Made by a program: the position numbers and the translations under genes
Shown: in pieces, positions 4,222 to 35,770 of the stretch
How positions within the stretch are numbered: the stretch's first letter is position 1
How the letters are laid out: every line of letters starts with the position of its first letter
Origin: Clostridia bacterium
Lineage (GTDB): Bacteria > Bacillota > Clostridia > TANB77 > CAG-508
DNA length: 64,000 bases
Assembly: GCA_017937285.1 (NCBI GenBank)
Contig: JAGBDU010000038.1
Coordinates: forward strand, 7,795 to 71,794
Reading direction: 5' to 3'
Notes under the pieces: generated by a model
The model's database searches: none
Told to the model about the DNA's origin: nothing
The model's input: only the letters and a program-made list of their open reading frames with translations

Positions 4222-5241
4222 ATGAACTTAAAAAGTTTTATAAAAGATAAAATACTTTTAACAGTTTTACTATTATTTGGAATTATTACAATAGAGATAT
4301 TTTTAATCCCTTATCCATTTGGAAATTTTATAAAATTATATATCCCAATAGTAATTTTGAGTTTATATGTAATAGGGGTTATTATTGAATATTGTACTAA
4401 AAGAAGTTTCTATGAAAATCTATCGAATACTCTAAATGAGTTAAGTGAAAAATATCTAATTACAGAAATTATAAATTCGCCTAGTTTTATAGAAGGCAAA
4501 ATATTAAAAAGTTTACTAGAAGAAATAGATAGATCAATGATTGAAAATGTAAACAAGTATAAATATATGCAAGAAGATTATAAAGATTATATAGAACTAT
4601 GGATTCATGAAATAAAAATACCAATAGCAGCAAGCAAAATGGTAGTAGAAAACAATAAAAATGAAGTTACCAAAAGTATAGATGAAGAATTAGATAAAGT
4701 AGAAGATTATATTGAACAAGCTCTATTTTATGCAAGAAGTAACACAGTAGAAAAAGATTATTACATAAGGAAAGTAAAATTAAAAGATATTGTAAATGAA
4801 AGTATTAAGAAAAATAAAGCAGTATTAATCCAAGAAAAAATAACAATAAATATTCATGATGTAGATTTGGAAGTAAGTACAGATAATAAGTGGATTGTAT
4901 TTATCTTAAATCAAATTATACAAAATAGTAGAAAATATAGAAAACAAAATGAAAATTTAGAAATAGAAATATATGCAAAACAAGGAATAGAGAATGTTAT
5001 TTTATATGTAAAAGATAATGGAATAGGAATAAAAAAAGGAGAAATTACAAGAGTATTTGAAAAAGGATTCACAGGAACAAATGGAAGATTATCAAATAAA
5101 AAATCTACAGGCATTGGATTATATTTATGTAAGAAATTATGTGATAAATTAGGAATAGCAATAGAACTAAATTCTATTCAAGAAGAAGGTACAGAAATAC
5201 GATTAGTATTTCCGAAAAGTAGTTATATTGATATGCAATAG
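4222..5241 (+). CDS. intramembrane-sensing histidine kinase (BceS-like)
   Basis: Two N-terminal TM helices with almost no extracellular loop. H-box ELWIHEIKIPIAA; N/G boxes QIIQNSRKY, DNGIGI, GTGIGLYL. Starts 1 nt after the regulator stop. Confidence 0.9.
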   Translation: MNLKSFIKDKILLTVLLLFGIITIEIFLIPYPFGNFIKLYIPIVILSLYVIGVIIEYCTKRSFYENLSNTLNELSEKYLITEIINSPSFIEGKILKSLLEEIDRSMIENVNKYKYMQEDYKDYIELWIHEIKIPIAASKMVVENNKNEVTKSIDEELDKVEDYIEQALFYARSNTVEKDYYIRKVKLKDIVNESIKKNKAVLIQEKITINIHDVDLEVSTDNKWIVFILNQIIQNSRKYRKQNENLEIEIYAKQGIENVILYVKDNGIGIKKGEITRVFEKGFTGTNGRLSNKKSTGIGLYLCKKLCDKLGIAIELNSIQEEGTEIRLVFPKSSYIDMQ

Positions 5242-26936: not shown

Positions 26937-29759
26937 ATGAATGACAAAATACTAATAAAAGGTGCAAAAGTACATAATCTAAAGAACATAGATTTAGAAA
27001 TACCAAGAGATAAATTAGTAGTTATAACAGGACTTTCAGGATCCGGAAAATCATCATTAGCATTTGATACACTATATGCAGAAGGCCAAAGAAGATATGT
27101 AGAAAGTCTATCGTCATATGCAAGACAATTTTTAGGACTAATGGAAAAACCAGATGTAGAATCCATAGATGGATTATCTCCAGCCATATCAATAGACCAA
27201 AAAACAACATCAAAAAATCCACGATCAACAGTAGGAACAGTAACAGAAATATATGACTACATACGTTTACTATATGCTAGAATAGGTGTACCTCACTGCC
27301 CAAAATGTGGTAAAAAAATAGAAAAACAATCAATTGACCAAATTATAGATAATATAATGAGCCTTGATGAAGGAACAAAAATCCAAATACTAGCTCCTGT
27401 AATTAGAGGAAGAAAAGGAGAATATAAAAAGTTATTAGAGGACTTCCAAAAAGAAGGATTTGTAAGAGCTAAAATAGATGGACAAGTTTATGAATTATCT
27501 GATGATATTGATATAGATAGAAAAAAGAAACATACTATTGAACTTATAGTAGATAGATTAGTTGTAAAAGAAGATATAAGAGGAAGACTGACAGAATCTG
27601 TAGAAACAGCTCTAAAACATGCAAGCAATTTAGTTGGTGTAGATGTAATAGGGGGAGATCCGCTTCTATTTAGTCAAAATTATTCTTGTCCTGATTGTGG
27701 TATAAGTATTGAAGAGCTAACACCTAGAATGTTTTCATTCAATAATCCATTTGGAGCATGTCCTGCATGTTCTGGTATTGGATATGTAATGAAAATGGAT
27801 GAAGATTTAATTATCCCAGATAAAAACAAAACTTTATATGATGGTGTTAAAGCATTTGGAGCAAGTACCATGAAAAAAGGCGATACTATGGCAAAAATGT
27901 ATTTTGAAAGTATAGGCAAAAAATATAATGTAGATATAAAACAACCTATTAAAAAGCTTCCTCGTAAATTTTTAGATAAAATACTTTATGGCACAGGTGA
28001 TGAAGAAATAGATTTTAAATATACTTCATCTGCAGGAACAAGAAAATTTACAGCACCATTTGAAGGAGTAATGCCTACACTAACTAGAAGATACAAAGAA
28101 ACAAAATCACAAGGTATGAGGGATTTTTATGAAATGTATATGAGTAGCAGTCATTGTGATGTATGTAATGGAGCAAGATTAAAACCAGAAACATTATCTG
28201 TAACAGTTGGAAATAAAAATATAAATCAGCTTACAGATATGCCTATAAACAAAATAAAAGAATTCTTGAATAATTTAAAACTAAATAAAACTCAAGCAAT
28301 GATATCAGAGCTAATATTAAAAGAAATAGATAAAAGACTTCAATTCTTGTTAGATGTCGGATTAGAATATCTAACTCTATCAAGAACAGCAGGTACATTA
28401 TCAGGAGGAGAAGCACAACGTATTCGTTTGGCAACACAAATAGGTTCTGGCTTAACAGGAGTACTATATATATTAGACGAACCAAGTATAGGTCTACATC
28501 AAAGAGATAATGAAAAACTAATAGCTACATTAAAAAAATTAAGAGATTTAGGTAACACAGTAATAGTAGTAGAGCATGATGAAGATACTATGTATGCAGC
28601 AGACCAAATCATAGATATTGGACCAGAAGCAGGTGTACATGGTGGAAACGTAATAGCACAGGGGACAGCTGAGGAAATAAAAACAATTCCAGAATCTATT
28701 ACAGGACAATACTTAAGTGGCAAAAAGAAAATAGATTTACCTAAAAAAAGAAGAAAATCTAACGGTAAATCTATTCAAATAATAAAAGCATCAGAAAACA
28801 ACCTAAAAAATATAGATGTAAAAATACCATTAGGTCAGTTTGTATGTATAACAGGCGTATCTGGTTCAGGAAAAAGTACATTAATAAATGAAATACTATA
28901 TAAAACAATAGCGAGAGATTTAAATGGAGCAAATGAAAAGCCTGGTAAATGTAAAGAAATAAAAGGTATAGAAAATATAGACAAAATAATTAATATAGAT
29001 CAATCTCCTATAGGAAGAACACCACGCTCTAACCCAGCTACATATACAGGAGTATTTGATAGCATAAGAGACTTATTTGCAGGAACAAATGATGCTAAAC
29101 TTAGAGGATTTGACAAAGGAAGATTTAGCTTTAATGTTGCTGGAGGTAGATGCGAAAATTGTAATGGAGATGGATTAATAAAAATAGAAATGCATTTTTT
29201 ACCAGATATATACGTACCTTGCGAAGTATGTAAAGGTAAAAGATATAACCATGAAACTCTGCAAGTTAAATATAAAGGTAAAACAATATCAGATGTACTT
29301 GAAATGACAGTAGAAGATGCTTTAAAATTTTTCGAAAACATTCCTAAAATAAAAAATAAAATTCAAACATTATATGATGTAGGTTTAGGATATATAAAAC
29401 TTGGACAACCATCTACCACATTATCAGGAGGAGAAGCACAACGTGTTAAACTTGCAACAGAACTTTCTAAAAAAGCTACTGGTAAAACATTATATATATT
29501 AGATGAACCTACTACAGGACTTCATATAGCAGATGTTCATAAATTAGTTGATATTTTACAAAGATTAGTCGATACAGGAAATAGCATTGTAGTTATAGAG
29601 CATAATTTAGATTTAATAAAAACAAGTGACTATATTATAGACTTAGGTCCAGAAGGAGGAGAAGCGGGAGGTACAATAGTCGCGACTGGAACTCCTGAGC
29701 AAGTTTGTAAGGTTGAAAGCTCTTATACTGGCAAGTTTTTAAAGAAATACTTGATATAA
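26937..29759 (+). CDS. uvrA: excinuclease ABC subunit A
   Basis: 940 aa. Two ABC modules ([18 protein letters not shown], two LSGGEAQR signatures) and zinc-finger cysteines [18 protein letters not shown]...CEVCKG. Confidence 0.95.
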
Positions 29760-29830
29760 TATATACTAATTTTAATTGTGCTTAGATTATAATTTTTATA
29801 GATTAAAAGGAAAATTTTAATAAATTTAGA

Positions 29831-29864
29831 AAAACAAGCAGTGAATTAAACACTGCTTGTTTTG
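29831..29864. terminator. bidirectional terminator
   Basis: AAAACAAGCAGTG-aattaaa-CACTGCTTGTTTT between convergent genes. Confidence 0.8.
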
Positions 29865-29868
29865 TACA

Positions 29869-30822
29869 TTATAATGAAAATAAATCGTAAGCGTTTTCAA
29901 AAAGTATTTTGTTTCTGTCTTTCTCAGTAATATTTAAAGTGCATATTACCTTAAGCTCATCCTTAGAATTTCCCCATGGAGAATCTGTGCCAAATAATAT
30001 TTTATTAGCACCAACATACCGCAAAGCGATATTGTAAATATCTAATGGAGAATCTAAACACATGTGATTGCCAAATGATGATTCTTGGTGCTTAAACATA
30101 AAAGTAGAAGGACAGCAATCTATAAATACATTTGGCATGTTTGCAATTTCTTCTAGATATTGTGGAAAAAGCTGAGCTGCATGTGCTATTACTACTTGGT
30201 TTTTTGGATGATTTTTTGCAAAGATAAGAGCATTTTCAGTAGATTCAAGCGACCTTGTACCAGTATGAATAAGAAATGGTAACTTAGTGCTTAAATGTAG
30301 CTCTTTTACTGATGCTTGATTTGTCCATGGATGCAATTTATAACCTACAAACTCGTTTGCAAAATTATGCTCAAAAAAATTGATTTCTTGTTGAATTGTA
30401 GAATTACAAATGCTTAAGAAGACGAATGGCTTTATTTTAAAGCGCAGGCTCTGTGTCCGCTTCAAAAGTTCAATATTATACTTCCTTACAGGATCAATTC
30501 CTGTATAAATAATTGTATTGCAAGTTTTACAATATATGGATAAAAAATTATTGCTTTGAACAATTGCAGTTCTATGTTTCTTTGAATAGGTACAATCAGA
30601 ACAATTTTCCATATTGTTGTTTATGCTTTCACATTTTGGGCAAGATATTGAACAATCAGATGGGCATCGAAAAATATCCAATTTAGGATTTAAAGAGGGA
30701 AGTGCAATTGAAATACCAGCTGTATCCATTTCATGCAAAAATTGCTTTAAGTTGTAATCGTTGTAGAAAAAGCAATTACTGCTAAATGGATTGATGTGCA
30801 AATGTGTGTTTACAATAGGCAT
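29869..30822 (-). CDS. amidohydrolase-2 (TIM-barrel metal hydrolase) family protein with a Cys-rich insertion
   Basis: N-terminal NTHLHI (HxH) and C-terminal ILFGTDSPW. About 60 inserted residues carry CPSDC..CPKC...CSDC...CKTC. GGAGG RBS; G+C richer than the flanks. Confidence 0.75.
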   Translation of the reverse strand: MPIVNTHLHINPFSSNCFFYNDYNLKQFLHEMDTAGISIALPSLNPKLDIFRCPSDCSISCPKCESINNNMENCSDCTYSKKHRTAIVQSNNFLSIYCKTCNTIIYTGIDPVRKYNIELLKRTQSLRFKIKPFVFLSICNSTIQQEINFFEHNFANEFVGYKLHPWTNQASVKELHLSTKLPFLIHTGTRSLESTENALIFAKNHPKNQVVIAHAAQLFPQYLEEIANMPNVFIDCCPSTFMFKHQESSFGNHMCLDSPLDIYNIALRYVGANKILFGTDSPWGNSKDELKVICTLNITEKDRNKILFENAYDLFSL

Positions 30823-30923
30823 AATTCAAACCTCCATTATTGCCAACAAAATTTATTTTCATTTTTTTGTACATAGGTACATATAATGTAATGTGATTAT
30901 AATAACATACGAGAAAATTTAAA

Positions 30924-31048
30924 TCAAGTTGGGGACGGAGATTTTTTGGAGGTGTCATTGGGGACGGAGATTTTTGACACAAACTCCATTTGTGTCAAAA
31001 ATCTCCGTCCCCAATGACACCCCAAAAAAATCTCCGTCCCCAACTTGA
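30924..31048. repeat. 125-bp near-perfect palindromic element (60-nt arms, 5-nt loop), two TTGGGGACGGAGATTTTT copies per arm
   Basis: Base-by-base pairing of 30924-30983 with 30989-31048 gives 58/60 complementary positions. It shares the core TCAAGTTGGGGACGGAG with the element at 38724. Confidence 0.9.
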
Positions 31049-31130
31049 CATTTTTATACATTATTTATAAAATATATAAAAATAAAAGAGCGGGAAAATA
31101 TAACACGAATAAATCGTATGAGGAGGGAAT

Positions 31131-31631
31131 ATGATAAGAGAAGGAAAACTAAGTGATGCAGATCAAATTTCAAAAATAAAAGTAGAATCATGGAAAGCCA
31201 CATATAAAGATTTGATGCCGGACAATATATTAAAAGATATAACATTCGAAAAAGAAAAAGAAAAATTTATAAATAAATTTGGCAAAAGACGAATAGTTGT
31301 ATATGAAGAAAATGACGAAATATTAGGATACTCTTTTTTTGGAAAAAGACAAAATTTGAACCAAGAAAATATGGCAGATTATACATCAGAAATATATGCG
31401 TTATATATAAAAAATGATTATAGAAGAAAAGGAGTAGGAACAAAAATTATACAACACATATGTAATACTTTAAAAGAAGAAAATAATGATAAGGTATTAT
31501 TGTGGTGTTTAAAAGGCAATCAAGGCGCAATAGATTTTTATAAGAAAAATGGTTTTGAATATTTAAAAGATAAAGCACAAGAACTAAATGGCATAAATGT
31601 AGAAGAGCTAAGTTTTGGAAAAAAATTATAA
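31131..31631 (+). CDS. GNAT family N-acetyltransferase
   Basis: 166 aa, RRKGVGTK (R-x-x-G-x-G) motif, GAGGAGGG RBS. First gene of the radical-SAM operon. Confidence 0.85.
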   Translation: MIREGKLSDADQISKIKVESWKATYKDLMPDNILKDITFEKEKEKFINKFGKRRIVVYEENDEILGYSFFGKRQNLNQENMADYTSEIYALYIKNDYRRKGVGTKIIQHICNTLKEENNDKVLLWCLKGNQGAIDFYKKNGFEYLKDKAQELNGINVEELSFGKKL

Positions 31632-31644
31632 AAGGAGTATCTTT

Positions 31645-31845
31645 ATGAATTATAAGTTAACTAGATATGTGTCATATAAAGAAAAAAATAATATTATAGC
31701 TGTTTATTCGAATTTCAATCTAATGTTTTTTAAAGGTGATACTGCAATGTGGTTTAAGAAAATTGTAAATAAGGAAAATATAGATGAAATTCCAAAAAAA
31801 TATTTAGAATATTTACAAAGGAAAGAAGTGATAGAGCTTGATTAA
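31645..31845 (+). CDS. small PqqD-like protein (candidate RiPP recognition element / peptide chaperone)
   Basis: AAGGAG then ATG at 31645, 66 aa. Its size, its position directly before the rSAM genes and the pattern ...NNIIAVYSNFNLMFFKGDTAMWFKKI...IDEIP..YLEYLQRKEVIE fit the PqqD/RRE fold. The assignment is by eye only. Confidence 0.45.
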   Translation: MNYKLTRYVSYKEKNNIIAVYSNFNLMFFKGDTAMWFKKIVNKENIDEIPKKYLEYLQRKEVIELD

Positions 31846-32908
31846 TGGATTTTCAAGAAATGAAATTGCAGATTTAATTTGGGAAAAGCCATATTTTACT
31901 CAAATAGAGCTAACTAGAAATTGCAATTTTTCATGTAAATTTTGTTTTGAAAATTGTGATTATGGAAAAAAGTATGAAGATAAATCGTTAGATGAATGGA
32001 AATATGTAATAGATAATTTATATTCGCTTGGGGTAAAACACTTGCATTTTTCCGGAGGAGAAAACTTTTTATATAAGTACTATAAAGAGCTATTACAATA
32101 TGCAAAACAAAAAGATTTTAGAGTGCTAGTAAATACAAATGGTTATTTTGATATAACAAATGTTTTAGATTATGTAGATGATTTTGTTTTTTCTGTTCAT
32201 GGTTATAAAGATGTTCATGACGAAATAGTAAACAAAAAAGGTGCTTTTGATAAAGTAGAAAAGAACATAGAAATAGCTGTAAATGCCAATAAAAATGTTT
32301 CAATAAATAGTGTTTTGATAAAAGAAAACTTAAATGATTATTTAAATTTGTATAATTATTTTTATGGAAAATATAAAAATAAAGTTAAATATTCACCAAC
32401 TTTGGCAATTCCATGTAAAACTGGTAAAAAAATTGATAATCTATCAGTAGATTTAAATAAAGAAAATATGGATATATATCTTAATATTTTAAATACTGTA
32501 GGTGAGCAAAATCTGGTGTATAAACATGGACTACATGGTTTGTGTAGCCTAGATAGAAATGAAAATGACTTCTTTATGCCAGTATGTGCAGCAGGTAAAA
32601 GTAAACTTATTATAAAATATAATGGAAACGTGTATCCTTGTAATTTTTTTCAAACTGATGAATATTTATGTGGTAATGTATTTCAACAAGATTTAAAAGA
32701 AATTTGGAAAAATGGAAAAGGATTTAATGTATTTAGGTCATATTATTTATGTAATGATATACCTGATGAATGTCAAAGCTGTAAAAAGAAAAATAATTGT
32801 TATTCAGGATGTAGAGCTTGGACCAAAAGCTACATAAATGGGGATATGAGTATTAAAAAGGAAAGAGATGATAGATGTGAAATTATCAATGCATATATTA
32901 GAGCTTGA
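31838..32908 (+). CDS. radical SAM enzyme with a C-terminal SPASM domain (maturase 1)
   Basis: CNFSCKFC (CX3CX2C), SGGE, and SPASM CQSCKKKNNCYSGC (CX2CX5CX3C) preceded by CAAG...GNVYPC. TTG start overlaps the previous stop. Confidence 0.9.
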   Translation: MINGFSRNEIADLIWEKPYFTQIELTRNCNFSCKFCFENCDYGKKYEDKSLDEWKYVIDNLYSLGVKHLHFSGGENFLYKYYKELLQYAKQKDFRVLVNTNGYFDITNVLDYVDDFVFSVHGYKDVHDEIVNKKGAFDKVEKNIEIAVNANKNVSINSVLIKENLNDYLNLYNYFYGKYKNKVKYSPTLAIPCKTGKKIDNLSVDLNKENMDIYLNILNTVGEQNLVYKHGLHGLCSLDRNENDFFMPVCAAGKSKLIIKYNGNVYPCNFFQTDEYLCGNVFQQDLKEIWKNGKGFNVFRSYYLCNDIPDECQSCKKKNNCYSGCRAWTKSYINGDMSIKKERDDRCEIINAYIRA

Positions 32909-33848
32909 AATAACAACTAGATGTAACTTAAACTGCTTACATTGCTATAATAGAGGCTATGAAAATATGGATATGCCATATGAGCAGATAATAAAATATA
33001 TAAACTTCGCTAACGAAAATTCAGTAAGTACTTTAGTAATTTCTGGAGGAGAAGCAAGTTTGCATAAAGATTTTATGAAATTATGCGAATATTTAGAGCA
33101 AGAAAGACCTAAATTAACTAATATTTCAAAAATAGTATTACAAACTAATGGATATATTTCTAATATGGATATTACTAAATTAAGAGGATTTGATTACATA
33201 CATTTAAGTTTTGATTTAGATGACAACAAAATTAGAAAAATCGAAGCGGATAAAACAATAGAATTAGCAAAAAAAATAAAATCTGCAGGAATTTCACCAT
33301 ACTTTTTTACAACAGTACATAAAAATAATGTGAATCACATTGATGAAATAGTTAAATTAGCTAATGATAATGAAATACGAATTGCATTCAACTTTTGTAT
33401 AGATACTGGCAGAAACAAAGAGGTTTTATTAAGTACTGAAGAAAAAATATTTGCTATAAAAAAATTATTACAATATGAAAAAGAAGGCAAAATAAGTAAA
33501 TTACGAAACCCATATGTAAATTCATATAAAGAGCTTTCTTCAGATGATGATAATTTTAGAATAAAAGGTGGATGTACAGCAGGAATTGCAGCATGTAGTA
33601 TATTAGCTAATGGTGATGTTATACCATGTCCATTTTTTAGAGAAGTATGTGGAAATGTAAATGAAAATAAATTAGAAGATATTTGGTTTAATTCTGAAAT
33701 GTTAAAAGAGCTTAGATATAGAAAAAAGTACGAAACCTGTGGTGATTGCAAATACCTAGCTTATTGTGGTGGATGCAGAAAATCTGCATACGAAACATCT
33801 CATAAGTTAAATGGATTTGATAAAAATTGTATTATGATAGGGAGGTGA
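32868..33848 (+). CDS. radical SAM enzyme with a C-terminal SPASM domain (maturase 2)
   Basis: CNLNCLHC (CX3CX2C), SGGE, and SPASM CGDCKYLAYCGGC (CX2CX5CX3C) preceded by CTAG...GDVIPC. The start may instead be the ATG at 32889. Confidence 0.9.
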   Translation: MIDVKLSMHILELEITTRCNLNCLHCYNRGYENMDMPYEQIIKYINFANENSVSTLVISGGEASLHKDFMKLCEYLEQERPKLTNISKIVLQTNGYISNMDITKLRGFDYIHLSFDLDDNKIRKIEADKTIELAKKIKSAGISPYFFTTVHKNNVNHIDEIVKLANDNEIRIAFNFCIDTGRNKEVLLSTEEKIFAIKKLLQYEKEGKISKLRNPYVNSYKELSSDDDNFRIKGGCTAGIAACSILANGDVIPCPFFREVCGNVNENKLEDIWFNSEMLKELRYRKKYETCGDCKYLAYCGGCRKSAYETSHKLNGFDKNCIMIGR

Positions 33849-33852
33849 TATC

Positions 33853-33918
33853 ATGGAAGAATGGCAAATGGATATTGAGGAATACAACGAATGTGGATGT
33901 GCAATAAACGGAGATTAA
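33853..33918 (+). CDS. 21-aa candidate RiPP precursor peptide MEEWQMDIEEYNECGCAINGD
   Basis: Absent from the ORF track because it is too short. GGGAGGTGA SD lies 5 nt before the ATG, 4 nt after the maturase-2 stop. A terminator follows about 30 nt downstream. Confidence 0.45.
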   Translation: MEEWQMDIEEYNECGCAINGD

Positions 33919-33946
33919 AAATCTAATAATCAATTTATTAAAATTT

Positions 33947-33980
33947 AAAGAAAGCAGATAAAATTATTCTGCTTTCTTTT
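33947..33980 (+). terminator. rho-independent terminator closing the rSAM operon
   Basis: AAAGAAAGCAGA-9 nt-TCTGCTTTCTTT followed by T. Confidence 0.8.
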
Positions 33981-34109
33981 ACTTGAATTATAATAAAGTT
34001 TTTATAAATTATAATAATGTTTTTATGTGTCTCTATTCTTATCTATTTCATTTTTACAAAATATAAGCAAGAATCAATCCGCTTCTATACTATACTAATA
34101 TAATAATAA

Positions 34110-34184
34110 TTAATCATTTTCTTGATTTTTTTGATTACCACTTTTGTTACCATTTTTATTTCCTTTTTTCTTCTTATCTGCCAT
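34110..34184 (-). CDS. 24-aa hydrophilic basic peptide MADKKKKGNKNGNKSGNQKNQEND
   Basis: Strong GGAGGTG SD 7 nt before the internal ATG at 34184. The longer 63-aa track ORF has no RBS. Confidence 0.35.
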   Translation of the reverse strand: MADKKKKGNKNGNKSGNQKNQEND

Positions 34185-34363
34185 AAAAAAACACCTCCGT
34201 TCATAAAAATAGTGTGTACATAAATTTATAAAGTATGCATTTAAATAAAAAAATCTGTAACCAAATAACTTGAAAAAGAATATATGTATGGTATAATCCA
34301 TAATGGGAAAACAATAATACCAGTTATTAATACATACGATTATTGGGAAAGGAATGATAAAAT

Positions 34364-35770
34364 ATGAATTACACTTATATAAATAGAAAGTTAGAAGAAT
34401 TTAATGCATACATATCAAATAAAAAAATTGCAATAATAGGAATTGGAGTTAGCAATATTCCTTTATTAGATTATTTCTATAAAAATAATGCTAAAGTAAC
34501 AATATTTGATAAAAAAACTTTAGATAAATTAGATGACAAAGTGATAGAAAAGATAAGTAAATATAATATAGATTATTCATTAGGAGAAAATTATTTAAGT
34601 AAATTAATAGGATTTGATGTTATTTTTAGATCACCAAGTTGTAGACCAGATACAAAAGAATTAGTAGAAGAAGCTAAACGTGGTGCATTAATAACATCAG
34701 AAATAGAAATGCTTATAAAATTATGCCCAGGTAAAGTAATAGGTATAACAGGTAGTGATGGTAAAACAACAACAACTAGTCTTACATATGCTATATTAAA
34801 AGAAAAAGGATATGACTGTTATTTAGGTGGAAATATAGGAATACCACTTTTCACAAAATTAAATGAAATGACTCCTGAATCAATAGTAGTATTAGAGCTA
34901 AGTAGCTTTCAATTAATGAATATGGAGATTAGCCCTAATATATCTGTTATTACTAATATATCTCCAAATCATTTAGATATTCATAAATCATATGAAGAAT
35001 ATATAGAATGTAAAAAGAATATATTTACACATCAATCTTCTGATGGAATAGTGGTATTAAATGCAGATAATGAGATAACAAATAAAATGAAGTCAGAAGC
35101 AAATGGAAAAGTAATAATGTTTAGTAGTAAACAAAGATTAGATAATGGAGTTATATATGATAATAAAACTATAAAATCATGTGAAGATGGATTAAGAAGA
35201 CATGTAATAGATGTTAAAAATGTAAAATTAAGGGGAATCCACAATTACGAGAACATTTGTGCGGCTATTGCAGCAACATCATCTTTAGTAGATATAGATA
35301 CACAAATAAAAGCAATAACAAAGTTTTCAGGGGTAGAACATAGGTTAGAGTTTATAAGAGAAATAAATGGTGTAAAATGGTATAATGATTCTATAGGAAC
35401 AAGTCCATCAAGAACAATAGCTGGTTTAAATTCTTTTGATGAAAAAATAGTATTAATAGCAGGAGGATATGACAAACATTTAGATTATACACCAATAGCT
35501 AAACCTATAGTAGAAAATGTATCTGCTTTAGTATTAGTAGGAGCAACTACAGAAAAAATATACGAAGCGGTAACAAAAGAGCTTAAAACACAAAACAAAG
35601 ATATGCCAATAGTCAAATGTACTACATTAGAAGAAACAATATCTATAGCTAATAAAATAGCTAAACCTGGAGAGGTAGTATTATTTTCACCAGCAAGCGC
35701 AAGTTTTGATATGTTTAAAAACTTCATGGAAAGAGGAGATTTGTTTAAGGAATTAGTAAATAATATATAA
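34364..35770 (+). CDS. murD: UDP-N-acetylmuramoyl-L-alanine--D-glutamate ligase
   Basis: 468 aa, GITGSDGKTTTTSL P-loop, Mur ligase middle and C-terminal domains, N-terminal Rossmann IGIGVSN. Confidence 0.9.
   Translation: MNYTYINRKLEEFNAYISNKKIAIIGIGVSNIPLLDYFYKNNAKVTIFDKKTLDKLDDKVIEKISKYNIDYSLGENYLSKLIGFDVIFRSPSCRPDTKELVEEAKRGALITSEIEMLIKLCPGKVIGITGSDGKTTTTSLTYAILKEKGYDCYLGGNIGIPLFTKLNEMTPESIVVLELSSFQLMNMEISPNISVITNISPNHLDIHKSYEEYIECKKNIFTHQSSDGIVVLNADNEITNKMKSEANGKVIMFSSKQRLDNGVIYDNKTIKSCEDGLRRHVIDVKNVKLRGIHNYENICAAIAATSSLVDIDTQIKAITKFSGVEHRLEFIREINGVKWYNDSIGTSPSRTIAGLNSFDEKIVLIAGGYDKHLDYTPIAKPIVENVSALVLVGATTEKIYEAVTKELKTQNKDMPIVKCTTLEETISIANKIAKPGEVVLFSPASASFDMFKNFMERGDLFKELVNNI

What the first reader, a model, noticed from the sequence alone, without database searches (positions are those of the whole stretch)
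31131..33980. Compact GNAT / PqqD-like / two radical-SAM-SPASM / 21-codon ORF operon: candidate uncharacterised RiPP pathway
Five same-strand reading frames are packed with gaps of 13, -8, -41 and 4 nt and closed by a strong terminator. They are a GNAT acetyltransferase, a 66-aa protein that looks like a free-standing PqqD-type peptide-recognition element, two clearly different radical SAM enzymes, and a 21-codon ORF with an excellent SD. Each rSAM enzyme has CX3CX2C plus a complete C-terminal SPASM CX2CX5CX3C motif. This is the logic of rSAM-tailored peptides such as sactipeptides, ranthipeptides, PQQ, mycofactocin, streptide and triceptides. However, the peptide MEEWQMDIEEYNECGCAINGD does not look like any precursor family I can recall (not SCIFF, PqqA, MftA, SboA or StrA). 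Two maturases for a peptide with only two Cys suggest two different cross-link chemistries, for example Cys thioether to an Asn/Asp/Glu carbon plus an aromatic W/Y cross-link. There is no dedicated protease or exporter gene in the operon, which is also atypical.
Basis: partly seen in the sequence, partly recalled or inferred. Interest (0 to 1): 0.85.

Follow-up and report, generated by a model that had tools for sequence, protein, structure and literature searches.

The report
Undescribed radical-SAM modified peptide gene cluster
This is a real, intact gene cluster that very probably makes a small chemically cross-linked peptide from a 21-codon gene; the same cluster, with an almost unchanged 18-residue peptide, occurs in uncultured gut Clostridia and in the ultra-small CPR/Patescibacteria, and I found no description of it.

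Summary
GNAT, a 66-aa protein, two different radical SAM/SPASM enzymes and a 21-codon ORF sit at the stated coordinates.

The 21-codon ORF is a real gene. I fetched 81 loci that hold both radical SAM genes. A homologous peptide gene is present in 70, and 9 of the other 11 are cut by contig ends. Its last 18 residues fit W-x-M-x-[VI]-x-x-[FY]-x-x-x-G-C-x-x-N-x-[DN]-stop. In a code-25 genome the invariant Gly is a TGA codon.

The 66-aa protein matches no PqqD sequence model, but its AlphaFold model (pLDDT 94) matches RiPP recognition elements. Neither radical SAM enzyme reaches the cut-off of any curated NCBIfam family.

- Only one of the two Cys is conserved.
- The second enzyme's motif is CX2CX5CX2C.
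- An Amidohydro_2 gene on the opposite strand (29869-30822) belongs to the system.

Natural fusions (GNAT to the 66-aa protein, and the second radical SAM enzyme to GNAT) suggest the GNAT acts on the peptide. CPR versions carry a PP-loop ATPase, a third radical SAM enzyme and a methyltransferase instead. None of the Pfam-annotated neighbourhoods I examined has an exporter gene.

In the window the cluster is an accessory insertion between uvrA and murD. Aminoacyl-tRNA synthetase genes, mostly ValRS, lie beside the cluster unusually often. This is unexplained.

Verdict: a new RiPP-type family. Its chemistry and role are unknown.

The parts
29869..30822 (-). Metal-dependent amidohydrolase (Pfam Amidohydro_2) with a Cys-rich insert.
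   Evidence: PF04909, E 1e-11. The HxH motif and downstream His/Asp positions are conserved, as is a CPxDCSxxC...CKTC insert. Every fetched locus with a homologue also has the GNAT: the Clostridia loci, the SR1/Absconditabacterales loci L032 and L034 (same strand, operonic), and L051-53.
30925..31047 (.). Near-perfect 120-nt palindrome built from four GGGGACGGAGATTTTT units, in the divergent intergenic region. It overlaps TTGACA boxes. Its role is unknown and it is probably not part of the pathway.
   Evidence: Four exact copies against 0 expected. Folds at -104.7 kcal/mol, z -17.6. It is replaced by unrelated sequence in the 98%-identical strain L058.
31045..31073 (+). Promoter-like site (TTGACA-17-TAAAAT), 58 nt upstream of the GNAT start codon.
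   Evidence: 11 of 12 consensus matches. This is a consensus match only. The total number of such sites in the region is no higher than in shuffled sequence.
31131..31631 (+). GNAT N-acetyltransferase, probably acting on the peptide.
   Evidence: PF00583, E 1e-17. No specific NCBIfam family is reached. It is fused to the 66-aa protein as a 230-232-aa ORF in L004, L009, L054 and L056. It is fused to the C-terminus of rSAM2 in P0062-P0073 and L051.
31645..31845 (+). 66-aa stand-alone RiPP recognition element (RRE, winged-helix fold). It belongs to a new sequence family and is translationally coupled to rSAM1.
   Evidence: No Pfam, NCBIfam or PDB sequence hit. The AlphaFold model has pLDDT 94.3. 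The top Foldseek PDB hits are RRE domains: TbiB1 (TMq 0.88), PbtF, MccB, McbB, ThcOx, LynD/TruD and SuiB. It is present in 74 of 81 loci with both rSAM genes. Only 81 representatives were found among 1.84 billion proteins.
31838..32908 (+). Radical SAM/SPASM enzyme 1, a putative peptide maturase.
   Evidence: PF04055 plus PF13186. CX3CX2C and eight further Cys are conserved in 57-58 of 58 orthologues. Best NCBIfam hits are MftC, AhbD, WgkB and PqqE, all far below cut-off. Best PDB hits are SkfB and PqqE.
32868..33848 (+). Radical SAM/SPASM enzyme 2, a putative peptide maturase about 25% identical to enzyme 1.
   Evidence: PF04055 plus PF13186. Invariant Cys are C19, C23 and C26, plus C236, C243, C254, C291, C294, C300, C303 and C321. 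Best NCBIfam hits are NirJ2, AhbD and ACGX, all far below cut-off. Best PDB hits are SkfB and SuiB. At least 120 homologue clusters share 43% identity or more.
33853..33918 (+). Precursor peptide gene: MEE + WQMDIEEYNECGCAINGD (a 3-residue N-terminal extension plus the 18-residue conserved core).
   Evidence: 39 distinct cores were found; 38 are exactly 18 residues from the Trp to the C-terminus. W1, G12, C13, N16 and D/N18 are invariant. Codon-position entropy is 0.87, 0.60 and 1.36. The same peptide is encoded by 10 different DNA sequences. G12 is a TGA codon in Absconditabacterales locus L034.
33947..33980 (+). Terminator-like hairpin (12-bp stem AAAGAAAGCAGA/TCTGCTTTCTTT, 9-nt loop) that closes the operon.
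   Evidence: Read from the sequence and folded (z -4.6).

Best explanation
This is a ribosomally synthesised, post-translationally modified peptide (RiPP) pathway of an undescribed family. The steps below are marked as shown or inferred.

Precursor (shown): the 21-codon gene is translated. Its last 18 residues form a fixed-length, C-terminally anchored core that is strongly conserved.

Recognition (fold shown, binding inferred): the 66-aa protein is a free-standing recognition element. The Clostridial precursors have only 2-6 residues before the core, and CPR leaders are not conserved. The element must therefore bind inside the core, most likely its acidic N-terminal half (W1 to F/Y8). It would present the peptide to rSAM1, to which it is translationally coupled, much as PqqD does for PqqE and MftB for MftC.

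Radical chemistry (inferred): the two SPASM enzymes each carry the SAM cluster and a full set of auxiliary-cluster cysteines. Each would perform one radical modification on the invariant residues. My best guess is (a) a thioether from Cys13 to a carbon of Asn16 or Asp/Asn18 and (b) a carbon-carbon cross-link centred on Trp1, for example to Met3. Probability of this exact pair: about 0.25.

Tailoring in this window's subtype (inferred): the GNAT acetylates the peptide, most simply its N-terminal amine, because the Clostridial peptides seen here have no Lys. The GNAT is fused to the recognition protein or to rSAM2 in other lineages. The co-occurring metal amidohydrolase would trim the peptide or carry out another hydrolytic step.

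CPR relatives replace these two enzymes with an Asn-synthase-like PP-loop ATPase, a third radical SAM enzyme and a methyltransferase.

Biological role (inferred, weakest step): the product is a small compact peptide aimed at a conserved target. I lean towards an antagonist or antimetabolite linked to translation or aminoacyl-tRNA synthetases (about 0.3), ahead of a cofactor (0.15) or a signal (0.15).
For: Gene anatomy and domains.

Conservation of the quartet across gut Clostridia MAGs and CPR/Patescibacteria, with the peptide gene moving within the cluster. It lies downstream of rSAM2, between GNAT and the RRE, or upstream of the RRE.

Peptide core invariants and fixed length.

Protein-coding selection and the TGA=Gly codon in a code-25 genome.

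RRE fold.

Conserved cluster cysteines.

Closest solved relatives are peptide maturases.

No curated protein- or cofactor-substrate family is reached.

Fusions of GNAT to the RRE and of rSAM2 to GNAT.

Every fetched locus with the amidohydrolase also has the GNAT.

In loci that lack both GNAT and amidohydrolase (all but one are CPR), cores end in Asp in 12 of 14 distinct sequences when the PP-loop gene is present. They end in Asn in 4 of 5 when it is absent. This points to chemistry at the C-terminal residue.

The cluster is accessory: 0 of 80 related species have it next to uvrA, 30 of which show the uvrA-murD synteny.
Against: No modification has been observed. The chemistry is inferred only from which residues are invariant.

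No exporter, C39-type protease or obvious immunity gene appears in any annotated neighbourhood. That is unusual for a secreted antimicrobial RiPP.

The core is conserved across phyla, which is more typical of cofactor precursors such as PqqA and MftA than of bacteriocins.

Amidohydro_2 enzymes are not known peptidases.

The RRE assignment rests on a predicted structure, and the Foldseek E-values are weak (best 9e-3) even though the hit list is consistent.

The synthetase adjacency is partly explained by a pre-existing hotspot. Relatives of the L051 organism carry the same ValRS pair next to a different gene cluster.
Confidence: 0.72

Rival explanations
1. The cluster makes a peptide-derived small-molecule cofactor or metabolite, in the manner of mycofactocin or PQQ. 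The rSAM enzymes would modify the invariant C-terminal residues. The amidohydrolase would excise the modified fragment, as MftE does. The GNAT would acetylate the freed amine. The product would stay inside the cell.
For: The core is fixed in length, C-terminally anchored and conserved across phyla. The RRE is discrete and small, and rSAM1's best curated hits are MftC and PqqE. There is one precursor gene per cluster, and no exporter or immunity gene in the annotated neighbourhoods. Every fetched locus with the non-protease-family hydrolase also has the acetyltransferase.
Against: The system is rare and accessory. Only about 36 of 185,579 species representatives have it. None of 80 species related to the window organism has it at the uvrA site, and the s66 family has only 81 representatives. 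No client oxidoreductase travels with the cluster. The minimal clusters contain only the peptide, the RRE and the two rSAM genes (L025, L075, L076, L080). The invariant residues are interspersed with variable ones, so a single universal small molecule is hard to derive. Tailoring sets differ between lineages.
Confidence: 0.15
2. The product is a translation-directed antimetabolite, for example an aminoacyl-tRNA synthetase (ValRS) inhibitor or a Trojan-horse peptide in the style of microcin C. The neighbouring synthetase genes would be resistant or compensating copies. The GNAT and amidohydrolase would contribute to self-protection, as MccE and MccF do.
For: ValRS genes lie within 0-3 genes of the cluster in at least five different arrangements: L025/L080 upstream; L075 divergent; L089/L090 downstream of the PP-loop gene; L051-53 with three ValRS genes in tandem; and the L005-L014/L056-57 clade. 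AspRS is adjacent in L009 and L054/55, and MetRS in L003. The core ends in Asp or Asn, as MccA ends in Asn. A PP-loop (adenylating) enzyme correlates with the terminal residue. The core's conservation fits a universally conserved target.
Against: The window itself has no ValRS within 64 kb. Most CPR loci have no synthetase neighbour. In relatives of the L051 organism the ValRS pair sits next to an unrelated gene cluster, so the pair pre-dates the cluster there. GNAT fusions to the RRE and to rSAM2 point to tailoring rather than immunity. No MccB/E1-like enzyme is present. I could not count synthetase copies per genome.
Confidence: 0.2
3. The two rSAM/SPASM proteins are maturases of a protein or a tetrapyrrole (anaerobic sulfatase maturase, or AhbC/AhbD/NirJ-type heme enzymes), and the 21-codon ORF is a chance reading frame.
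For: NirJ2 and AhbD are the top-scoring curated models for rSAM2.
Against: Those scores are 4-5 times below the family cut-offs (124 vs 500, 99 vs 500; anSME 55 vs 349). The ORF is conserved with coding-type variation in 70 loci. Its invariant Gly is decoded from TGA in a code-25 genome. An RRE-fold protein is always present. No sulfatase or heme-pathway genes are adjacent.
Confidence: 0.02

Closest known systems
Mycofactocin system (MftA precursor, MftB RRE, MftC rSAM/SPASM, MftE hydrolase)
   Same: A short precursor with an invariant, C-terminally anchored motif. A small free-standing recognition protein next to a SPASM radical SAM enzyme. A hydrolase from a non-protease superfamily. No exporter. 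MftC is the best curated hit of rSAM1.
   Different: The MftC score is 97 against a cut-off of 265. There is no GVY terminus and no MftD or MftF. There are two SPASM enzymes instead of one. The amidohydrolase is Amidohydro_2, not creatininase-like. The system is rare and accessory, and no associated dehydrogenases are seen.
PQQ biosynthesis (PqqA, PqqD, PqqE)
   Same: A roughly 20-30-residue precursor, a discrete PqqD-type recognition protein and a SPASM enzyme. PqqE is among the top sequence hits in NCBIfam and the PDB.
   Different: The 66-aa protein does not match the PqqD sequence family. The PqqE score is 87 against 381. The Glu-X3-Tyr pair is absent, and the aromatic position can be Phe, Val, Leu, Ile or Cys. 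There is no PqqB, PqqC or PqqF.
Sactipeptide and ranthipeptide maturation (SkfB, AlbA, CteB/SCIFF, PapB, NxxcB)
   Same: SPASM/twitch radical SAM enzymes that link a Cys sulfur to a carbon of a nearby residue. SkfB is the closest solved structure by sequence for both enzymes. The invariant C-x-x-N-x-D resembles the Cys-to-Asn/Asp thioether motifs known for ranthipeptides (from my own knowledge of PapB and NxxcB).
   Different: Only one invariant Cys. No N-terminal RRE fused to the enzymes. No family cut-off is reached (StsB 74 vs 625, SkfB 65 vs 300, AlbA 50 vs 850). The core is conserved rather than hypervariable. No exporter or protease is present.
N-acetylated RiPPs with a pathway GNAT (triceptide HaaN; microviridin MdnD, from my own knowledge)
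   Same: A GNAT encoded in the cluster and physically tied to the maturation machinery. An aromatic-X-X motif (W-x-M) could host a three-residue cyclophane.
   Different: HaaN scores 18.9 against a cut-off of 250. No 3-CyFE-type family is reached. Cyclophane formation is pure conjecture here.
Microcin C (MccA heptapeptide, MccB, MccE GNAT, MccF peptidase)
   Same: A very short, near-leaderless, conserved precursor ending in Asn or Asp. A GNAT and a hydrolase are present in the cluster. There is a link to aminoacyl-tRNA synthetases. The MccB N-terminal RRE is among the structural matches of the 66-aa protein.
   Different: No MccB/E1-type adenylyltransferase. Radical SAM enzymes do the core chemistry. 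The synthetase most often nearby is ValRS, not AspRS. The GNAT appears to act on the precursor.

Membership tests
Radical SAM/SPASM-dependent RiPP pathway with an RRE (general class) | Radical SAM CX3CX2C cluster motif in the maturase(s) | tested here: met
   Present and conserved in both enzymes: 58 of 58 orthologues for rSAM1; C19, C23 and C26 in rSAM2; PF04055.
Radical SAM/SPASM-dependent RiPP pathway with an RRE (general class) | C-terminal SPASM domain with the cysteines for two auxiliary Fe-S clusters | tested here: met
   PF13186 in both enzymes. Eight further Cys are conserved in each. The motif is CX2CX5CX3C in rSAM1 and CX2CX5CX2C in rSAM2.
Radical SAM/SPASM-dependent RiPP pathway with an RRE (general class) | Peptide recognition element (winged-helix RRE / PqqD-like fold) | tested here: met
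   Met by predicted fold only: pLDDT 94, and the top PDB matches are RRE domains. No Pfam PqqD sequence match in 19 of 19 members.
Radical SAM/SPASM-dependent RiPP pathway with an RRE (general class) | Short precursor gene that co-occurs with the enzymes and is under protein-level selection | tested here: met
   Present in 70 of 81 loci; 9 of the other 11 are truncated. Codon-position entropy and TGA=Gly.
Radical SAM/SPASM-dependent RiPP pathway with an RRE (general class) | Demonstrated enzymatic modification of the peptide | not testable with these tools
   Needs co-expression and mass spectrometry.
Mycofactocin system | MftC equivalog score (TIGR03962, cut-off 265 bits) | tested here: not met
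   97 bits (rSAM1) and 81 bits (rSAM2).
Mycofactocin system | MftA-type precursor with a C-terminal Gly-Val-Tyr, plus MftD, MftE and MftF genes | tested here: not met
   The core ends in N-x-[DN]. No such genes appear in the annotated neighbourhoods.
PQQ biosynthesis | PqqE equivalog score (TIGR02109, cut-off 381) and a PqqD Pfam match | tested here: not met
   87 and 77 bits. No PF05402 hit.
Anaerobic sulfatase maturase / heme (AhbC, AhbD, NirJ) radical SAM enzymes | Curated equivalog cut-offs (349 for the sulfatase maturase; 500-650 for the heme enzymes) | tested here: not met
   anSME 55, AhbD 89 and 99, NirJ2 82 and 124, NirJ1 71 and 78.
Sactipeptide/ranthipeptide families (SCIFF, SkfB, AlbA, StsB) and the ACGX system | Family score cut-offs, and Cys-rich or repeat precursors | tested here: not met
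   StsB 74 vs 625, SkfB 65 vs 300, AlbA 50 vs 850, ACGX 99 vs 400. The peptide has a single invariant Cys and no ACGX repeats. No NCBIfam peptide model matches.
Triceptide (three-residue cyclophane) pathways with the HaaN GNAT | HaaN equivalog score (cut-off 250) | tested here: not met
   GNAT scores 18.9 bits against NF041716.
Microcin C-like peptide-nucleotide systems | MccB/ThiF-type adenylyltransferase in the cluster | tested here: not met
   No such domain appears among the called genes of the annotated loci. The only adenylating candidate is a PP-loop protein, found in CPR, SR1 and the L051-type loci.

The most novel reading that the evidence does not exclude
The cluster makes a new class of doubly radical-cross-linked 18-residue peptide, shared by horizontal transfer between CPR/Patescibacteria episymbionts and reduced gut Clostridia. 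The peptide acts on a universally conserved translation component, most plausibly valyl-tRNA synthetase. The neighbouring synthetase genes would be resistance or compensation copies. That would make it the first RiPP-type synthetase inhibitor built by radical SAM chemistry, and a molecular weapon or regulator of ultra-small bacteria.
Probability: 0.12. Interest if true: 0.88.

Novelty: new variant of a known kind. Interest (0 to 1): 0.6.

Why it matters
If the pathway works as inferred, it defines a new RiPP family with several unusual features.
- The precursors are nearly leaderless, so recognition must occur inside the core.
- Two distinct SPASM enzymes act on one 18-residue peptide.
- The recognition-element sequence family is new.
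- The peptide is conserved between human-gut Clostridia and CPR bacteria, which have very few biosynthetic pathways.

The pathway gives a compact 4-6-gene system for finding new radical peptide chemistry. The recurrent neighbourhood with ValRS, AspRS and MetRS genes gives a concrete, testable hypothesis about its target. It is not a long-standing puzzle solved, because uncharacterised radical SAM RiPP families are numerous.

Tried and rejected
- A single-protein scan of GTDB genomes with rSAM2 found nothing. An alignment-based scan was needed.
- A sequence-level PqqD/RRE assignment for the 66-aa protein failed against Pfam, NCBIfam and PDB sequences. Only the fold search worked.
- No NCBIfam model matches the precursor, including the long CPR forms.
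- An Rfam scan of 29500-34500 gave only spurious miRNA-type hits on the palindrome. There is no riboswitch or T-box.
- A viral-contig scan found no phage-borne copy.
- An apparent 100-aa insertion in some CPR rSAM2 matches was an artefact. The match had extended into the SPASM region of rSAM1.
- I first took the neighbouring class I synthetases for LeuRS from weak Pfam editing-domain hits. NCBIfam shows they are ValRS.
- The idea that the extra archaeal-type ValRS genes were co-transferred with the cluster is weakened. Near-identical ValRS pairs sit next to a different gene cluster in related genomes.
- The amidohydrolase as leader peptidase fits poorly. It occurs mostly where the N-terminal extension is only 2-6 residues, and it is absent from most long-leader CPR loci.
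- Six literature searches, including one for the peptide motifs as text, found no description of this family. Subscription-only papers are not covered.

Full report
**1. What is in the window**

Five + strand ORFs are present:
- a GNAT at 31131-31631
- a 66-aa protein at 31645-31845, called s66 below
- radical SAM enzyme 1 (rSAM1) at 31838-32908, with a TTG start
- radical SAM enzyme 2 (rSAM2) at 32868-33848
- a 21-codon ORF at 33853-33918, encoding MEEWQMDIEEYNECGCAINGD

The spacings are 13, -8, -41 and 4 nt. A hairpin at 33947-33980 follows the last ORF and folds much better than shuffled sequence (z -4.6). The terminator scanner missed it because its loop has 9 nt. A promoter-like TTGACA-17-TAAAAT lies at 31045-31073.

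The window has 26.5% G+C. The cluster lies between uvrA (26937-29759) and murD (34364-35770).

**2. Domain assignments**

Pfam confirms the GNAT, and Radical_SAM plus SPASM in both large proteins. In NCBIfam neither enzyme comes near any curated cut-off:
- rSAM1: MftC 97 bits vs 265, PqqE 87 vs 381, AhbD 89 vs 500, anaerobic sulfatase maturase 55 vs 349
- rSAM2: NirJ2 124 vs 500, AhbD 99 vs 500, ACGX 99 vs 400

By sequence, the closest solved structures are the peptide maturases SkfB, PqqE and SuiB.

In 58 rSAM1 orthologues the CX3CX2C motif and eight further Cys are conserved in 57-58 sequences. In rSAM2, C19, C23 and C26 plus eight further Cys are invariant or nearly so. One correction applies: rSAM2's terminal motif is CX2CX5CX2C, not CX2CX5CX3C.

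**3. The short ORF is a real gene and part of the system**

An alignment-based scan of one genome per GTDB species returned 48 loci. About 36 carry true orthologues at 39% identity or more. As labelled by the depositors, they come from:
- uncultured gut and rumen Clostridia
- CPR/Patescibacteria: Moraniibacteriota, Falkowbacteria, Saccharibacteria, SR1, Absconditabacterales, Paceibacterota and Staskawiczbacteria
- a few MAGs labelled Gammaproteobacteria

A metagenome scan added 80 more loci.

Across all fetched loci, 81 contain both rSAM genes and 74 of these also contain s66. A homologous peptide ORF was found in 69 by pattern, plus one (L077) by eye. Of the other 11, nine are cut by a contig end. 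L033 is degenerate (truncated rSAM1, frameshifted rSAM2), and L092 is unresolved.

The peptide gene changes position between lineages:
- downstream of rSAM2 in the window and its close relatives
- between the GNAT and s66 in L015, L016, L021 and L037
- upstream of s66 in CPR

I found 39 distinct cores. In 38 of them the distance from the Trp to the C-terminus is exactly 18 residues. W1, G12, C13, N16 and D/N18 are invariant, and M3, V/I5 and F/Y8 are nearly so.

Codon-position entropy is 0.87, 0.60 and 1.36 for positions 1, 2 and 3. One peptide is encoded by 10 different DNA sequences. The invariant Gly uses all four GGN codons, and in Absconditabacterales locus L034 it is a TGA codon, which is Gly in code 25.

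The first Cys of the window's 'CGC' is not conserved; it is Ala, Asn, Ser or Gly elsewhere.

CPR precursors have roughly 13-35 non-conserved residues upstream of the core. Clostridial ones have only 2-6.

**4. The 66-aa protein**

No member of the family hits Pfam PqqD or any other model, and a profile search of PDB sequences found nothing meaningful.

An AlphaFold model built on 23 homologues is confident: pLDDT 94.3, pTM 0.81. Its best PDB matches are almost all RiPP recognition elements:
- lasso-peptide TbiB1 bound to its leader (TM-score 0.88 over the query)
- the PbtF RRE
- the N-terminal domains of MccB, McbB, ThcOx, LynD/TruD and SuiB

The Foldseek E-values are weak (best 9e-3), as expected for a 66-residue domain, but the list is consistent. 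I accept 'PqqD-like recognition element' as a fold assignment, not a sequence-family assignment.

The family is small. A full HMM scan of 1.84 billion representative proteins found 81 hits, nearly all 55-120 residues long.

**5. The system is larger than the finding**

The 317-aa ORF on the opposite strand just upstream (29869-30822) is an Amidohydro_2 protein. It has conserved HxH, His and Asp metal-ligand positions and a conserved Cys-rich insert.

A homologue lies next to the cluster in the GNAT-bearing Clostridial loci L004-L016, L021, L024, L037, L056-60, L100 and L051-53. It also lies, operonically, in the two SR1/Absconditabacterales loci. Every fetched locus with the amidohydrolase also has the GNAT. 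The GNAT occurs alone in a few CPR loci (L081, L223, L224).

Two independent natural fusions tie the GNAT to the maturation machinery:
- GNAT fused to s66, as single ORFs of about 230 aa in L004, L009, L054 and L056
- rSAM2 fused to a C-terminal GNAT, in the 485-500-aa proteins P0062-P0073 and in L051

This favours a tailoring role on the peptide. The Clostridial peptides seen here contain no Lys, so the N-terminal amine is the simplest target.

Most CPR loci carry a different accessory set upstream of the precursor:
- a PP-loop, Asn-synthase/TilS-like ATPase
- a third radical SAM enzyme of about 420 aa
- a class I methyltransferase

Among loci that lack both GNAT and amidohydrolase (all but one are CPR), cores end in Asp in 12 of 14 distinct sequences when the PP-loop gene is present. 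They end in Asn in 4 of 5 when it is absent; the exception is the Clostridial L003 core. The GNAT-only CPR locus L081 also ends in Asn. This is not phylogenetically corrected. It suggests the PP-loop enzyme acts on the C-terminal Asp.

None of the Pfam-annotated neighbourhoods contains an ABC exporter, a C39 protease or an evident immunity gene.

**6. Genomic status of the cluster in the window**

UvrA places the organism among uncultured gut Clostidia of the 'Clostridium sp. CAG:273' type. The best match is 91%, to a sheep-gut MAG, and about 70 species share roughly 74-84% identity.

Thirty of these species keep uvrA followed by murD, but none of the 80 fetched loci has the cluster there. MAGs that do carry the cluster have it elsewhere. 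For example, L004 and L197 come from the same MAG.

Cassettes 98-100% identical to the window's occur in human gut and other metagenome assemblies (L001, L002, L058). No copy was found on viral contigs.

The cluster is therefore an accessory, mobile island. That argues against a housekeeping cofactor.

**7. An unexplained association with aminoacyl-tRNA synthetase genes**

ValRS genes, identified by NCBIfam, lie within 0-3 genes of the cluster in at least five different arrangements:
- directly upstream of the precursor (L025 Saccharibacteria, L080)
- divergent and upstream (L075)
- downstream of the PP-loop gene (L089, L090)
- about 1 kb upstream of the GNAT (the L005-L014 and L056/57 clade)
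- three ValRS genes in tandem immediately after the amidohydrolase (L051-53)

AspRS is adjacent in L009 and L054/55, and MetRS in L003.

By a rough estimate this is far more than two random flanking genes would give: about 3% per insertion site against about 4 of 7 Clostridial site types.

There are caveats. The window has no ValRS within 64 kb. Most CPR loci have no synthetase neighbour. Relatives of the L051 organism have the same relA...ValRS-ValRS locus with an unrelated gene cluster in place of this one, so that site is at least partly a hotspot. I treat this as a lead to the target, not as evidence.

**8. Mechanism**

Shown:
- a translated, strongly constrained 18-residue C-terminal core
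- an RRE-fold partner that is nearly always present and is translationally coupled to rSAM1
- two divergent SPASM enzymes with complete cluster ligands
- lineage-specific tailoring sets, with the GNAT physically fused to the machinery in some lineages

Inferred:
- The RRE binds within the core, because Clostridial precursors have almost no leader and CPR leaders are not conserved.
- Each rSAM installs one modification on the invariant residues. The C13/N16/D18 end and the W1/M3 end are the obvious sites.
- The GNAT acetylates the peptide, and the amidohydrolase performs a hydrolytic step linked to it.

The exact chemistry cannot be derived from sequence. I give about 0.25 to a thioether at Cys13 plus a Trp-centred C-C link.

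**9. Comparison with known systems, and verdict**

The architecture works like the mycofactocin and PQQ systems and like sactipeptide/ranthipeptide maturation. It fails every membership test for them (see the table).

No curated model exists for the precursor or the RRE. Six full-text searches, including the peptide motifs as strings, found nothing. Subscription journals are not covered, so prior description cannot be excluded.

I classify it as a new variant of a known kind, the radical SAM/SPASM RiPP pathway. It is of moderate to good interest: real, compact, conserved across very distant and poorly understood bacteria, and testable. It is also one of many uncharacterised families of this class.

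Noticed in passing
window 30925-31047: A near-perfect 120-nt palindrome made of four GGGGACGGAGATTTTT units, between the amidohydrolase and GNAT genes. It folds at -104.7 kcal/mol and is unique in the window. Unrelated sequence of similar length replaces it in a 98%-identical strain (L058). One metagenome contig of the same strain (L001) begins inside it. It may be a small mobile hairpin element or an operator.
   Followed up: partly
L051 4813-11823 (also L052, L053); L138-L140 9001-14230: Three ValRS genes in tandem: two archaeal/CPR-type (822 and 803 aa, 51% identical to each other) and one bacterial-type. They follow the cluster directly in a Hadza gut contig. Related genomes keep the relA...ValRS-ValRS locus but carry a different gene cluster there (two radical SAM genes, a GATase, a CapK-like gene, an aminotransferase, a U32 peptidase, an ATP-grasp gene and a NeuB-like gene).
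   Followed up: partly
L034 about 4642-4700: In an Absconditabacterales MAG the invariant Gly of the precursor's G-C pair is encoded by TGA. The gene reads through only in genetic code 25. This is an independent check that the small ORF is translated.
   Followed up: yes
window 29760-34363 compared with L141-L220: The uvrA-murD interval is variable (about 0.5-4.8 kb) across 30 related gut Clostridia species. Only the window's lineage has this cluster there. I did not examine what fills the interval in the other species.
   Followed up: partly
L033 5187-7500; L054 9051-9960: These are decaying copies. A Staskawiczbacteria locus has a truncated rSAM1, a frameshifted rSAM2 and no precursor. In L054/L055 rSAM1 is split into 79-aa and 228-aa fragments.
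   Followed up: no
L221 8740-11518 compared with L222: Two otherwise identical Falkowbacteria-type loci differ by an inserted element next to the cluster. The element carries a rolling-circle Rep-like protein and a serine recombinase.
   Followed up: no
L223 5673-7028; L224 11531-12523: Some CPR loci carry further radical SAM genes beside the quartet: a B12-binding radical SAM enzyme in L223 and an extra SPASM enzyme in L224. This points to more tailoring diversity.
   Followed up: no
L056 684-1598: A Peptidase_S66 (LD-carboxypeptidase / MccF family) gene lies a few genes upstream of a ValRS-linked copy of the cluster, next to a class II Asp/Asn-type synthetase gene. This may be coincidental.
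   Followed up: no
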